64,000 nucleotides of DNA from NCBI GenBank assembly GCA_044228445.1, contig JBGAUV010000002.1, forward strand, positions 140,600 through 204,599, given 5' to 3'. The notes under the pieces are model-generated. The model searched no databases. It was given only the letters and a program-made list of their open reading frames with translations, and was not told the origin of the DNA. Numbering within the stretch: position 1 is the stretch's first letter; each line of letters opens with the position of its first letter. This document shows, piece by piece, positions 4,134 through 43,213 of this stretch. The position numbers and the translations under genes are program-made. The stretch comes from Minisyncoccia bacterium (GTDB taxonomy: Bacteria > Patescibacteriota > Minisyncoccia > Phycocordibacterales > PALSA-1337).

Positions 4134-4793
4134 ATGAAAGAAAAAGCCATTGAAATACTGACACAAGTCCAAAAAGATAACCCGTTCATTAAGTCTATTT
4201 ACCTCTGGGGATCGATTACGACAGACGAATATACTGAAGGAAAAAGTGATATAGATGCTATAGCTTTTGTTGAGGAAAACACAGATTCTTCTGCAAGAGA
4301 CAGGATCAATGAAGTTCTTAGTAAAGAAATTTCTAGTCTCAAGATTAATTTTCTTTATGAATCAGAGCTGAATGATGGTCCATCAAAAGGCGGTCTTACG
4401 AAAGTCATACATCCTGCAGTAATTCTTTATGATTTTCCTGCATGGATTTATATAGATGGTGCTCAGTATAGAAAAGAAGATTTTAGTTCAGGTAGAACCT
4501 CATTAGATGAAGTTATAGGTATTTTAACAAACACGATTAAGGACAGGTTCCTACCTATTCCAAACGAGCAGGATTGTGTTTATTTTGTAAAAGCAGTAGC
4601 AAAACTTTTATATTTCAAAAATCAGAGAAGCTTACCATTCAAAGCATTTCGGTATGCTGACTTGATCGTTGATTCTAATGTGGAGGACAAAGATATTGCA
4701 GTTATTATTAGTGAGCTAAAGAAATCAAGTTGGAATCGACAGTTAATAGCTGAAAAAGCACCAGAAATTATTTCTTTTGTTAACCGTCTATAG
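4134..4793 (+). CDS. Pol-beta superfamily nucleotidyltransferase, ANT/AadA/Lnu-like
   Basis: YLWGSITTDEYTEGKSDIDAIAFV matches the GS...[DE]hDhhhhV nucleotidyltransferase signature (compare AadA HLYGSAVDGGLKPHSDIDLLVTV). The track start at 4116 is GTG; ATG at 4134 (MKEKAIEIL) is more likely. Confidence 0.55.
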   Translation: MKEKAIEILTQVQKDNPFIKSIYLWGSITTDEYTEGKSDIDAIAFVEENTDSSARDRINEVLSKEISSLKINFLYESELNDGPSKGGLTKVIHPAVILYDFPAWIYIDGAQYRKEDFSSGRTSLDEVIGILTNTIKDRFLPIPNEQDCVYFVKAVAKLLYFKNQRSLPFKAFRYADLIVDSNVEDKDIAVIISELKKSSWNRQLIAEKAPEIISFVNRL

Positions 4794-4865
4794 ATTTTGA
4801 ATTTGGTAACTTATGGAGTATACTAGGGGTGTTAAAGAGATAGAGGTGGTCCCTTTCTGTAACCT

Positions 4866-10064: not shown

Positions 10065-10931
10065 ATGGAAAAAGATGAAAGGGAGGATTTTCTATTAAAG
10101 AGCTATCTAAATGATGTCCGTGATTACAATCTCATTTCCAGAGATAGAGAGGTTCAACTCGCTCAAGAAATAGCAAAAAGAAATAACGAAGCAAGAAATG
10201 AACTTGCTCTAGCAAATGTACGTTTAGTGATAAAAATCGCTATGGACTTTGACGGCTATGGTCTTTCTATTCATGACTTAATCCAAGAGGGTAACACTGG
10301 TCTCATGAAGGCTGTTGATAGATTTGACCCAACTAAGGGTGCAAAGTTTTCTACTTATGCAGCTTGGTGGATCAAACAGGCAATTAAAAGAGCTTTAAGT
10401 AACTCAGGATTTACCGTAAGGATTCCAGTTCATCTCGTGCAGTCAATTTCTAATTTGAATAGATTCAGAGAAAAATTTGAGAAGGAAAATAGAAGGTTAC
10501 CAAATGATGATGAAATTAAACAAGAACTAGGTCTTGTTGCTGATACAGTTGACGCAGCAAAGACCGTGCGAAATGGTAGAATATCACTTGATTCAAAATT
10601 TGGTGAAAGTGAGATAAGTCTTTCTGATATTCTCGAGGATGAAACATCTATCAATCCATCTTCTGCTAATGAGCTAGATGATCAACTTTCTAATTTAGCT
10701 GATCTAGTTAATAGATTAAGTAACAGAGAAAAAAACATAATCGAGTGTCGTTTTGGTCTTAATGGCAAAGAACAGATGATACTTGATGATATCGGTAAAA
10801 TTTATGGAATAACCCGAGAGAGAGTTAGACAAATTGAGGCAAAAGCACTTAAGAAGTTGCGGAATTGGCTTGATAAAAAGAATTCCGAAGTAGATCTTGA
10901 TTTGCCACCAGCAGTCTACAATGTTGGATAA
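10065..10931 (+). CDS. rpoD: RNA polymerase sigma-70 family factor (compact, 288 aa)
   Basis: Region 2 (DLIQEGNTGLMKAVDRFD, STYAAWWIKQAIKRAL). Region 4 HTH (LDDIGKIYGITRERVRQIEAKALKKLR). Strong RBS aaaggagg upstream. Confidence 0.85.
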   Translation: MEKDEREDFLLKSYLNDVRDYNLISRDREVQLAQEIAKRNNEARNELALANVRLVIKIAMDFDGYGLSIHDLIQEGNTGLMKAVDRFDPTKGAKFSTYAAWWIKQAIKRALSNSGFTVRIPVHLVQSISNLNRFREKFEKENRRLPNDDEIKQELGLVADTVDAAKTVRNGRISLDSKFGESEISLSDILEDETSINPSSANELDDQLSNLADLVNRLSNREKNIIECRFGLNGKEQMILDDIGKIYGITRERVRQIEAKALKKLRNWLDKKNSEVDLDLPPAVYNVG

Positions 10932-42531: not shown

Positions 42532-42649
42532 TGGTATAAATAATAACAAATTTATGGGAGAGTTAGTATTGACTGTTTTACTTATAAATGTTATTGTTTT
42601 TTTATGTATCAAGACCGGCCTCTCCTTGTGAGACAAGCCGGTTTTCTTA

Positions 42650-42900
42650 TTGACAGCATAAGATACTTTGTTAGAATATAAATACAGGTGGCGTGTTGAG
42701 GTTGAATCAAGCTCACGCCAATATATGTATCATATACTGCGCATGCGTATGTATGTGAAAACATCCTGATGATGAACCATGGTTCATCCGCATAACGGCG
42801 ACTTAAGTCCGTAAGGATCCTAGTTTATCTGGTGTAGTAAATTAGAGAGTTCGTCTATGTTATGTAGCACCATTGGCGCATTCAACCTGCGCCTTTTCTA
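42650..42900 (+). ncRNA. candidate ~215-nt small RNA (unclassified) with promoter and terminator
   Basis: TTGACA (42650-55), 16 nt spacer, TAGAAT (42672-77). Terminator GGCGCA-TTCAACC-TGCGCC-TTTTCTATTT (42875-42903). Body is GC-rich relative to the surroundings and contains the perfect 18-bp palindrome GATGAACCATGGTTCATC (42771-88). No ORF of plausible size. Confidence 0.4.
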
Positions 42901-42915
42901 TTTAATTTAAAAAAA

Positions 42916-42950
42916 CCAGCCTATCCTTTCGGAAAGCTGGCTTTTTCTTC
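42916..42950. terminator. bidirectional hairpin terminator
   Basis: AAAAA-CCAGC..CTTTCGGAAAG..GCTGG-CTTTTTCTTC. Confidence 0.5.
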
Positions 42951-43213
42951 TCTTATTAATATTGCAATAAGAAGCAATATCGCGGAAAAGATTTTGATAT
43001 GAAGGAATTCTATGTTCCAGGACAAAATCGCGAGGAATAGCAGAAGTGCTGATAAAATTTTTTCTTTCATTCTTTGCTCTTTATATATTAAGGAAAAAAT
43101 GATGTCAAATTGATGTGTAGCTCTACACCATGAAGCTACTAACTTCATATTGCCTATATGTATAGTCAATATGAAAAAAGAGGGTGCTCTGGCTCCCTCT
43201 TTTTTCTATTTAC

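What the first reader, a model, noticed from the sequence alone, without database searches (positions are those of the whole stretch)
42600..42950. Candidate ~215-nt sRNA between dnaJ and dnaK on the opposite strand
A near-consensus sigma70 promoter (TTGACA 42650-55; 16-nt spacer; TAGAAT 42672-77) points along the plus strand. It leads into a GC-enriched, ORF-less segment that ends in a strong intrinsic terminator (GGCGCA-TTCAACC-TGCGCC-T-run) followed by a second hairpin terminator. The body contains the perfect 18-bp palindrome GATGAACCATGGTTCATC and the GNRA-closed stem AGUCC-GUAA-GGAUC. A further hairpin with a T-run (42612-42647) sits just upstream of the promoter. Size and context would fit a 6S-like or other housekeeping sRNA embedded in the chaperone operon, but I cannot classify it.
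Basis: seen in the sequence. Interest (0 to 1): 0.55.

Follow-up and report, generated by a model that had tools for sequence, protein, structure and literature searches.

The report
Accessory small RNA gene in Patescibacteria
The stretch between dnaJ and dnaK very probably holds a real but non-essential small RNA gene that matches no described family, occurs only in some members of one genus-level group of candidate-phyla-radiation (CPR) bacteria, and is not a 6S-like housekeeping RNA.

Summary
These signals are not above chance in one sequence. Comparison with relatives makes the case.

The block hairpin, promoter, about 215-nt body and terminator recurs in six lineages of one DnaJ cluster (at least 90% identical) of Patescibacteria. 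Conservation starts at the predicted transcription start and ends at the terminator's T-run. The body is 86-98% identical between lineages. By contrast, dnaJ four-fold sites are 52-88% identical and the flanking cassette genes only 42-67% identical in protein.

The same multi-domain fold is predicted in all six lineages, with a few compensatory changes. No reading frame is conserved. No Rfam family matches.

It is not housekeeping. Seven fetched relatives lack it, including one with 97% identical DnaJ, and one carries a truncated copy. It sits in a hypervariable cassette island wedged between dnaK and dnaJ. Three lineages have a 187-aa gene downstream of it and three, including this window, do not. 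That argues against a leader or an obligate antitoxin.

The function is unknown. My best guess is a trans-acting, probably protein-binding, accessory sRNA. Transcription has not been shown.

The parts
42612..42647 (+). Upstream hairpin followed by a T-run. It is a conserved cassette-boundary or terminator element that always precedes the RNA promoter.
   Evidence: It is at least 90% conserved directly upstream of the promoter in all six RNA-bearing lineages. Copies also follow other cassette ORFs in L002 (4 copies). It is present in L001 and L052, which lack the RNA.
42650..42677 (+). Sigma-70-type promoter: -35 TTGACA (42650-55), TG (42669-70) and -10 TAGAAT (42672-77).
   Evidence: It scores 11 of 12 with a TG. 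The other five lineages have TTGATT-17-TGnTAAAAT. The hexamers and TG are conserved while the spacer and discriminator vary.
42684..42768 (+). RNA domain 1. It has a closing stem (CAGG 42685-88 with CCUG 42765-68), hairpin P1a (42690-42719, whose 18-nt loop region varies at one position each in L060 and L002) and a long hairpin P1b (42725-42764) that varies in sequence.
   Evidence: Conservation starts at ACAGG, the predicted +1. P1b in L002 carries more than 13 substitutions and indels yet still forms a 14-bp hairpin. AU/GC and CG/UA double changes are seen.
42771..42788 (+). Hairpin P2: GAUGAAC-CAUG-GUUCAUC, the 18-bp palindrome.
   Evidence: All 7 stem pairs are invariant in six lineages. 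The only change lies in the loop (CAUG to CACG). Because nothing in the stem varies, this hairpin is uninformative about RNA versus DNA function.
42790..42874 (+). RNA domain 3, a three-way junction. It has a closing stem (42790-95 with 42860-65), an inner stem (42798-804 with 42847-54), hairpin P3a (GUCC-GUAA-GGAU, about 42807-18), hairpin P3b (42820-45, invariant loop UGGUGUAG) and then a single-stranded tail UAGCACCAUU.
   Evidence: Folds are. Most substitutions between lineages fall in loops or junctions, or keep the pairing (GU/AU/GC at pair 140-159, UG/CG at pair 145-154). The C113G change is offset by a register shift in the 3' strand (read from the sequence).
42875..42903 (+). Intrinsic terminator T1: GGCGCA-UUCAACC-UGCGCC followed by a U-run.
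   Evidence: Found. The stem is invariant and a T-run is present in all six lineages. Homology between lineages ends just after it.
42911..42945 (.). Second hairpin T2, flanked by an A-run and a T-run (bidirectional). It is a neighbour, not part of the conserved RNA unit.
   Evidence: The same hairpin follows the 186-aa gene in L043/L044 and is present in L058. It is absent after the RNA in L003, L002 and L060. On the - strand it ends the 49-aa ORF.
42921..43070 (-). Neighbouring small hydrophobic ORF of 49 aa (MKEKILSALLLFLAILSWNIEFLHIKIF...), convergent with the RNA.
   Evidence: Translation is. It is conserved in L058 with 4 aa changes. It is not found in the other RNA-bearing lineages. It shows no excess complementarity to the RNA. 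It is listed for context only.

Best explanation
The window holds an independently transcribed, structured, non-coding RNA gene of about 190 nt plus a terminator, about 215 nt in all. It is an accessory gene, not a core gene.

Inferred mechanism:
- A sigma-70 promoter with an extended -10 starts transcription at about 42684.
- The transcript folds into three local domains: a two-hairpin domain, a short perfect hairpin and a three-way junction.
- Transcription ends at the intrinsic terminator at 42875-42903.

The unit travels as 'boundary hairpin, promoter, RNA, terminator' inside a hypervariable array of small cassettes that occupies the dnaK-dnaJ spacer in one genus-level group of Patescibacteria.

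Sequence is conserved about equally in loops, junctions and stems. No complementarity to neighbouring mRNAs is seen. I therefore think the RNA most likely acts in trans through its folded shape, by binding a protein or other partner, rather than as a cis leader or an antisense RNA.

Shown: the signals exist, the unit is conserved, it has sharp boundaries, its neighbours vary, it has no coding potential and it matches no known family. Inferred: transcription, the exact ends, the fold and the mode of action.
For: 1. Unit conservation. Hairpin, promoter, body and T1 recur in six lineages: the window, L058, L060/61, L003, L043/44, and L002 (the same sequence as L042 and L046-51). CM scores are 198-233 bits.

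2. Boundaries. The discriminator just before ACAGG varies while the body is conserved from ACAGG onwards. Homology stops after the T-run.

3. Promoter logic. The -35, TG and -10 are kept while the spacer varies. The T-run is kept in all six.

4. Contrast with neighbours.
- The body is 86-98% identical.
- dnaJ four-fold sites are 52-61% identical between distant lineages.
- The 187-aa gene is 63-67% identical in protein.
- The upstream 230-aa-family gene is only 42% identical in protein and 54% in DNA between L058 and L003, where the RNA is 93% identical.

5. Independence from neighbours.
- Upstream there is either nothing, a 225-231-aa gene or a 136-aa gene.
- Downstream there is a 187-aa gene in three lineages, T2 plus a convergent small ORF in two, or another small ORF in one.

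6. Fold.
- z = -3.5, -2.7 and -2.1 for three copies.
- The same architecture appears in separate MFE folds of four copies.
- 97.9% of pair cells are standard pairs, and 3 pairs changed on both sides. 10 of 500 shuffles reach that covariation score.
- The real diverged copies keep folding energy better than randomly mutated ones for the most divergent pairs (fractions 0.013, 0.027, 0.017).

7. No ORF is conserved on either strand, and 1-nt and 3-nt indels are present.
Against: - No expression data exist.
- Only six close sequences are available. 48 of 63 pairs never vary, so covariation has little power. The structure was also derived from these same sequences.
- The energy-retention test is not significant for three of the eight pairs tested (0.32, 0.25, 0.073).
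- RNA identity does not track genome distance. It is 92.6% for the window against its closest relative L058, and 91.7% against the distant L003. L058 looks like a mosaic of the two types. Recombination or transfer of the unit could therefore explain part of the high identity, in place of purifying selection.
- The - strand also folds fairly well.
- No target or partner has been identified.
Confidence: 0.62

Rival explanations
1. The element is a cis-regulatory leader (riboswitch or attenuator) of the 187-aa gene. The RNA promoter would drive that gene and T1 would be the regulated terminator. The window copy would be an orphaned remnant left after the gene was deleted.
For: In L002, L003 and L043/44 the 187-aa ORF starts 60-95 nt after T1 in the same direction. 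In the window, T1 is followed directly by the hairpin that ends the 186-aa gene in L043/44, as if the gene had been cut out. The stems of P1a and T1 are near-identical (GGCGUG/CACGCC against GGCGCA/UGCGCC). The L002 centroid fold pairs the 5' end with the 3' arm of T1, so an alternative fold is conceivable.
Against: - Three of six lineages (the window, L058, L060) keep an intact promoter, RNA and T1 with no such gene, and have two different downstream contexts.
- L045 keeps the gene but has lost the RNA promoter and the first two-thirds of the RNA.
- A conserved block, TTGATw-17-TGGTATAAG, lies between T1 and the gene. It could be the gene's own promoter (read from the sequence; its -10 lacks the final T).
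- The window promoter is closer to consensus than the others, not decayed.
Confidence: 0.1
2. There is no functional RNA. The block would be conserved at the DNA level, as a homogenised promoter and terminator scaffold, a recombination or boundary module of the cassette island, or a small selfish or mobile segment spread by recombination between lineages.
For: - The boundary hairpin is repeated within the island and occurs without the RNA.
- RNA identity is decoupled from genome divergence, and L058 is a mosaic. This points to exchange between lineages.
- The flanking non-coding parts, including the hairpin, the promoter and the 5' region of the 187-aa gene, are also well conserved.
- The P2 palindrome could be a protein-binding site on DNA.
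- Presence is patchy.
Against: - The body is more conserved than the promoter spacer or discriminator beside it, and conservation begins exactly at the predicted +1.
- The promoter and terminator signals are each kept in a functional form in all six lineages.
- P1b changes sequence but keeps a hairpin.
- Only a single copy was found in 64 kb, and there are no terminal repeats or transposase.
- Phage and plasmid collections hold no match.
Confidence: 0.16
3. The RNA is the antitoxin of a toxin-antitoxin or abortive-infection module. It could be type III-like with the 187-aa protein as toxin, or type I-like with the convergent 49-aa hydrophobic peptide as toxin.
For: - The island carries toxin-type cargo in relatives: PemK pairs in L001 and L053-55, and Fic/RhuM in L056 and L062.
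- The order 'promoter, RNA, terminator, gene' matches the layout I recall for ToxIN (my own knowledge).
- The window and L058 have a convergent small hydrophobic ORF that shares a bidirectional terminator. This recalls the txpA/RatA and bsrG/SR4 layouts (the layouts are from my own knowledge).
Against: - The RNA has no tandem repeats.
- The RNA occurs without the 187-aa gene in three lineages. The gene occurs with a promoter-less truncated RNA in L045.
- The 49-aa ORF accompanies the RNA in only two of six lineages.
- The transcripts would not overlap unless T1 is read through, and complementarity is no better than shuffles.
Confidence: 0.08

Closest known systems
Lineage-restricted stand-alone bacterial sRNAs with their own sigma-70 promoter and intrinsic terminator
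   Same: It is a discrete intergenic unit of 100-300 nt. It has a strong promoter, a Rho-independent terminator and a structured body, with no ORF, and it is restricted to close relatives.
   Different: There is no single-stranded seed with detectable complementarity to neighbouring mRNAs. It sits in a hypervariable cassette island. It occurs in Patescibacteria, where two literature searches found no papers describing sRNAs.
6S RNA (Rfam RF00013 and related families)
   Same: It is similar in size (about 190-215 nt), is highly structured, has its own promoter and is richer in GC than the surrounding spacers.
   Different: There is no CM match. The 5' and 3' ends do not pair and there is no central bubble. 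It is not universally present, even within the genus.
Type I antitoxin sRNAs arranged convergently with a small hydrophobic toxin ORF (RatA/txpA, SR4/bsrG of Bacillus subtilis; recalled from my own knowledge)
   Same: In the window and L058, an sRNA of about 215 nt converges on a 49-aa hydrophobic ORF across a shared bidirectional terminator.
   Different: There is no 3' overlap unless T1 is read through, and no complementarity above shuffles. The ORF is absent from four of the six RNA-bearing lineages.
Type III toxin-antitoxin loci (ToxIN-like; layout recalled from my own knowledge)
   Same: In three lineages the order is promoter, RNA, terminator, protein gene.
   Different: The RNA is not a tandem-repeat array. 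The RNA and the gene occur apart. The protein is unrelated to any model in PADLOC.
tpke11, a candidate sRNA reported in the E. coli dnaK-dnaJ spacer (recalled from my own knowledge, not checked here)
   Same: It has the same genomic address, between dnaK and dnaJ.
   Different: No Rfam family matched here at all, so there is no homology. This RNA lies on the opposite strand and belongs to an inserted variable island rather than to the operon.
Integron-like cassette arrays, in which each cassette ends in an imperfect hairpin site
   Same: For the surrounding island only: small, mostly single-gene cassettes of variable content lie in one orientation, and many are followed by the same conserved hairpin.
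   Different: No integrase is seen next to the array. The hairpins look like ordinary terminators (a stem followed by a T-run). No recombination was tested.

Membership tests
6S RNA | A match to the 6S covariance models | tested here: not met
   There is no hit at gathering thresholds in 64 kb. No 6S hit appears at E <= 10 in the element or in two homologues.
6S RNA | A rod-like fold, closed by pairing of the 5' and 3' ends, with a large central bubble | tested here: not met
   The MFE and consensus folds give three local domains plus a terminator. The 5' end pairs with positions 82-85, not with the 3' end.
6S RNA | Housekeeping distribution: present in essentially all relatives | tested here: not met
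   It is absent from the dnaK-dnaJ spacer of L001, L052, L053-55, L056/57 and L062/63, and truncated in L045. Only the fetched loci were searched, not whole genomes.
Any described RNA family (Rfam 15: SRP, tmRNA, RNase P, Y RNA/YrlA, riboswitches, ribozymes, T-box and others) | A covariance-model match | tested here: not met
   The only weak hits (E of 0.03 or more, far below gathering scores) fall on the flanking terminator hairpins or are inconsistent between homologues.
Cis-regulatory leader, riboswitch or attenuator | Constant association with a downstream gene in the same orientation | tested here: not met
   The 187-aa gene follows in three of six lineages. In the window and L058, T2 and a convergent ORF follow. 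In L060 a different small ORF follows.
Cis-regulatory leader, riboswitch or attenuator | An antiterminator that is mutually exclusive with the terminator | tested here: inconclusive
   P1a and T1 have near-identical stems, so strand swapping is possible. It appears in one centroid fold. All of these bases are invariant, so there is no comparative test.
Type III toxin-antitoxin (ToxIN-like) | The antitoxin RNA is made of tandem direct repeats | tested here: not met
   TRF finds no repeat in the body.
Type III toxin-antitoxin (ToxIN-like) | Obligate co-occurrence of the RNA and the toxin gene | tested here: not met
   RNA-only loci exist (the window, L058, L060). One locus has the gene with a truncated RNA (L045).
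Type I toxin-antitoxin | A small hydrophobic toxin ORF whose mRNA overlaps or is extensively complementary to the sRNA | tested here: not met
   The ORF exists in the window and L058. The transcripts abut only at T2. The duplex energy is no better than shuffles (73% of shuffles reach it). The ORF is absent from the other four lineages.
Stand-alone bacterial sRNA gene (generic class) | Its own promoter and terminator, conserved with the body, and no conserved ORF | tested here: met
Stand-alone bacterial sRNA gene (generic class) | A discrete transcript is detected | not testable with these tools
   No transcriptome data could be accessed.

The most novel reading that the evidence does not exclude
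The RNA is the founding member of a new class of structured RNA specific to Paceibacteria-like CPR bacteria. It would be the one strongly conserved component of a hypervariable, hairpin-delimited cassette island. It would work as an RNA-protein or RNA-only accessory system, for example controlling or protecting against the island's toxin-like or defence-like cargo, or acting in the interaction with a host cell.
Probability: 0.15. Interest if true: 0.6.

Novelty: new member of a known kind. Interest (0 to 1): 0.38.

Why it matters
My two literature searches found no papers on non-coding RNAs in candidate-phyla-radiation bacteria. A well-delimited, conserved, structured RNA of about 215 nt with no Rfam family is a concrete candidate to test in metatranscriptomes.

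Its setting may be as useful as the RNA. The dnaK-dnaJ spacer of this group is a hotspot that holds interchangeable small cassettes, including PemK pairs, Fic/RhuM and unknown membrane and soluble proteins. The cassettes are bounded by a shared hairpin. The RNA is far more conserved than its neighbours there.

The find is narrow in taxonomic range and has no assigned function, so its impact is modest unless a partner or phenotype is found.

Tried and rejected
- **Rfam.** I searched at gathering and at E <= 10 on the window and two homologues. Nothing usable came back. ARAGORN found no tRNA or tmRNA.
- **Exact-pattern scans.** Two viral scans gave one chance palindrome hit inside a coding region. 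One metagenome scan found only a contig identical to L002.
- **Phage and plasmid blastn.** No match.
- **CM search for more distant copies.** A search of about 30 other Patescibacteria dnaJ loci and the whole window found none.
- **Neighbour protein families as handles.**
  - The 187-aa family has only 3 clusters among 5.8 billion proteins.
  - The 136-aa family has only 2.
  - Neither has a Pfam or PADLOC hit.
  - The afdb50 library was unavailable.
- **Coding hypotheses.** These included a tiny MMNHGSSA frame inside P2 and a 51-aa antisense ORF. I rejected them because starts, lengths and frames are not conserved.
- **Antisense or base-pairing to the small ORF mRNA, dnaJ or dnaK 5' regions.** No signal.
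- **Origin from a sigma-factor gene fragment.** A 29-of-35 same-sense match is real for the window copy but absent from the other copies checked (L003, L044, L002). There is no wider similarity. It remains unexplained.
- **Look-ups of the window's own DnaJ.** Both forms, the 360-aa sequence and P0136, returned nothing.
- **Literature.** Two searches found no papers describing sRNAs in Patescibacteria or Saccharibacteria.

Full report
**1. What is in the window**

The gene identities come from Pfam. The features are as follows:
- A hairpin with a T-run at 42612-47.
- TTGACA at 42650-55, a 16-nt spacer, a TG at 42669-70 and TAGAAT at 42672-77.
- A stretch of about 190 nt with no ORF.
- The terminator GGCGCA-TTCAACC-TGCGCC with a T-run at 42875-42903.
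- A second hairpin at 42911-45.

GC is 0.41-0.43 in the body and 0.27-0.30 in the adjoining spacers. The + strand folds at -68.3 kcal/mol (z = -3.5). The - strand is less extreme (z = -2.8).

On their own, the promoter-like and terminator-like counts in the region do not exceed shuffles. The single sequence is therefore suggestive only.

**2. Organism and relatives**

A DnaJ-based scan of species-representative genomes places the window in Patescibacteria (CPR). The three close records are labelled Candidatus Saccharibacteria. The next DnaJ relatives, at 71% identity or less, are mostly named Paceibacterota, Parcubacteria or Taylorbacteria where a name is given.

The cluster of DnaJ sequences at least 90% identical to the window's has 16 members. 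I fetched the dnaK-dnaJ region for most of the distinct lineages.

**3. The element is conserved as a unit**

Six lineages carry the boundary hairpin, promoter, body and terminator T1:
- the window;
- L058;
- L060/L061;
- L003;
- L043/L044;
- L002 (the same sequence as L042 and L046-L051).

This rests. A covariance model built from four of these copies scores all six at 198-233 bits.

In every copy the -35 (TTGACA or TTGATT), the TG and the -10 (TAGAAT or TAAAAT) are kept, while the spacer and the 6-7 nt before ACAGG vary. Conservation begins at ACAGG, the predicted +1. It continues through T1 and its T-run, and then homology between lineages stops. These boundaries are what a transcription unit would show.

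**4. How conserved it is, compared with what**

The body is 86-93% identical between lineages, and 97.7% between L003 and L044. The comparisons are as follows:
- In the same genome pairs, dnaJ four-fold degenerate sites are 52-61% identical for distant pairs and 88% for the closest pair.
- The 187-aa gene that follows the RNA in three lineages is 63-67% identical in protein.
- The 230-aa-family gene just upstream is 42% identical in protein and 54% in DNA between L058 and L003, where the RNA is 93% identical.

The RNA unit is therefore an island of conservation between fast-diverging neighbours.

There is a caveat. RNA identity does not scale with genome distance (92.6% to the closest genome, 91.7% to a distant one). 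L058 shares character states with both the window type and the L003 type. Exchange or recombination of the unit may therefore add to purifying selection as a cause of the high identity.

**5. Structure**

Separate MFE folds of four copies gave the same architecture, and the six-copy consensus fold agrees with it:
- Domain 1 has the closing stem CAGG/CCUG, the near-invariant hairpin P1a and a long hairpin P1b.
- Domain 3 is a three-way junction with hairpins P3a and P3b.
- A single-stranded tail and then T1 follow.

On the six-sequence alignment, 97.9% of pair cells are standard pairs. Three pairs changed on both sides, and eight further pairs show one-sided compatible changes. 10 of 500 column shuffles reach the observed covariation score, and slid controls fall to about 30-46% paired.

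P1b in L002 differs by more than 13 substitutions and indels yet still forms a 14-bp hairpin.

I also mutated one copy at random, with the observed number and type of changes, and compared folding energies. Random mutants usually fold worse than the real diverged copy. The fraction of random mutants that fold at least as well is 0.013-0.04 for four pairs. It is 0.017, 0.073, 0.25 and 0.32 for four more.

Taken together this is supportive but not decisive. 48 of 63 pairs never vary, and the model was derived from these same sequences.

It is GUAA or GCAA in two lineages and AUAG in four.

**6. Not coding and not a known family**

No ORF on either strand keeps its start, length or frame across the six copies, and 1-nt and 3-nt indels occur.

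Rfam gives nothing at gathering thresholds in the 64-kb window. No hit appears in the body at E <= 10. Two homologues give only inconsistent noise. ARAGORN finds nothing. Phage and plasmid collections have no similar DNA.

**7. Not housekeeping: a cassette in a variable island**

In this group the dnaK-dnaJ spacer is a hotspot of variable content. Apart from the small convergent ORF next to dnaK, the window holds only the RNA unit. Relatives hold the following:
- L001 (97% identical DnaJ) and L053-55 carry a PemK toxin pair and no RNA.
- L056/57 and L062/63 carry Fic/RhuM and other genes and no RNA.
- L052 has a 136-aa gene, the hairpin and then a different gene.
- L002 has five cassettes.

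The same hairpin that precedes the RNA follows several cassette ORFs in L002 and occurs in loci without the RNA.

L045 has a copy in which the hairpin is fused to the last third of the RNA, with no promoter. The 187-aa gene there is intact.

The family is also rare in public data. One metagenome contig matches a 20-mer from the RNA. The 187-aa and 136-aa neighbour families have 3 and 2 clusters among 5.8 billion proteins.

**8. Relation to neighbours**

Three lineages have the 187-aa gene 60-95 nt after T1. Three do not.
- In the window and L058, T1 is followed by T2 and a convergent 49-aa hydrophobic ORF.
- In L060, T1 is followed by another small ORF.
- T2 of the window is the hairpin that ends the 186-aa gene in L043/44. 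The window therefore looks like that arrangement minus the gene.

Together with L045, this separates the RNA from the gene in both directions. That argues against a leader or an obligate antitoxin.

The RNA has no tandem repeats. Its duplex energy with the small-ORF mRNA and with the dnaJ and dnaK 5' regions is no better than shuffles. The 187-aa protein remains uncharacterised.

**9. Interpretation**

The best-supported reading is a stand-alone, structured, accessory small RNA gene (confidence about 0.6). The mode of action is inferred only. Sequence is conserved evenly across loops, junctions and stems, and no antisense target is nearby. This favours action through the folded shape, such as binding a protein, over simple seed pairing.

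The rivals are:
- an orphaned leader of the 187-aa gene (about 0.1);
- DNA-level or recombination-driven conservation without a functional RNA (about 0.16);
- an antitoxin RNA (about 0.08).

**10. Novelty and score**

This is a new candidate member of a familiar kind, a lineage-restricted bacterial sRNA. It has no described family and comes from a phylum for which my literature searches found no sRNA papers. It is not 6S-like. Interest is moderate at 0.38. The delimitation and conservation are good and the genomic setting is interesting. Against that, there is no expression evidence, no function, a very narrow distribution and limited covariation.

Noticed in passing
window 42535-43213; L002 1583-5000; L003 1-2200; L001 1-1018; L053-L063 upstream of dnaJ: In this genus-level group the dnaK-dnaJ spacer is a hypervariable array of small cassettes, mostly on the strand opposite the chaperone genes. 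The cargo differs between lineages. It includes PemK toxin pairs, Fic/RhuM, a 225-231-aa membrane-protein family (42-67% identical), and 136-aa, 85-aa, 187-aa and 122-aa proteins with no family. Many cassettes end in the same conserved hairpin (ACCGGCCTCTCCTTGYGAGAYAAGCCGGT followed by a T-run). No integrase or transposase was seen in the fetched flanks.
   Followed up: partly
window 42809-42843 and window 10414-10448: A 35-nt stretch of the RNA is 29 of 35 identical, in the same sense, to the sigma-70 gene (codons TVRIPVHLVQSI). None of 500 dinucleotide shuffles of the RNA reaches this score anywhere in the window. The window differs from L003, L044 and L002 at 7 positions in this stretch, and at all 7 the window base equals the sigma-gene base. 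L058 shares most of these states. Gene conversion, common origin and coincidence all remain possible.
   Followed up: partly
window 42921-43070 (- strand), with TTGACA at 43108-43103 and TATAAA at 43085-43080: An unannotated 49-aa hydrophobic ORF (MKEKILSALLLFLAILSWNIEFLHIKIFSAILLLIAILIREEKASFPKG) has a promoter-like site so close to the ATG that the mRNA would be nearly leaderless. It ends at the bidirectional hairpin T2. It is conserved in L058 with 4 aa changes, but no gene was called there.
   Followed up: partly
L045 243-373: This is a truncated copy of the element. The boundary hairpin is fused directly to the last 90 nt or so of the RNA, so the promoter and the first two-thirds are deleted. 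The downstream 187-aa gene remains intact.
   Followed up: yes
L003/L044/L045/L002, between T1 and the 187-aa ORF (for example L046 9912-10000): The non-coding region upstream of the 187-aa gene is almost identical between L003 and L044, including a TTGATw-17-TGGTATAAG promoter-like block. The coding sequence that follows is only 63% identical in protein. The switch from conserved to diverged is sharp, at the start codon.
   Followed up: partly
window 42548-42600 and the homologous positions in L001, L002, L003 and L043: A conserved block, GTTAGTATTGAC...TTAYRATGTTAYT, lies just upstream of dnaJ in all lineages, whatever cassette follows. It may be the dnaJ promoter, or a divergent promoter for the first cassette.
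   Followed up: no
L002 1637-2005, L052 937-1212 and the 187-aa proteins (P0001-P0003): The N-terminal 45 residues or so of the 187-aa protein weakly resemble the 122-aa cassette protein (pairwise E = 0.006). By eye they also resemble the ORF after the hairpin in L052. This hints at a family of paralogous variable cassette proteins.
   Followed up: partly
L060 about 4730-4840 (- strand): Directly after T1 in L060 there are two direct copies of a unit of about 20 nt (AATTTAAATGATATAAACTA). They lie before a 50-aa hydrophobic ORF (MKTILVLCVICVICKLIGLN...). An ORF with the same N-terminus begins after T2 in L044.
   Followed up: no
window 1-64000: No tRNA, tmRNA or any Rfam family at gathering score was found in the whole 64-kb window.
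   Followed up: no
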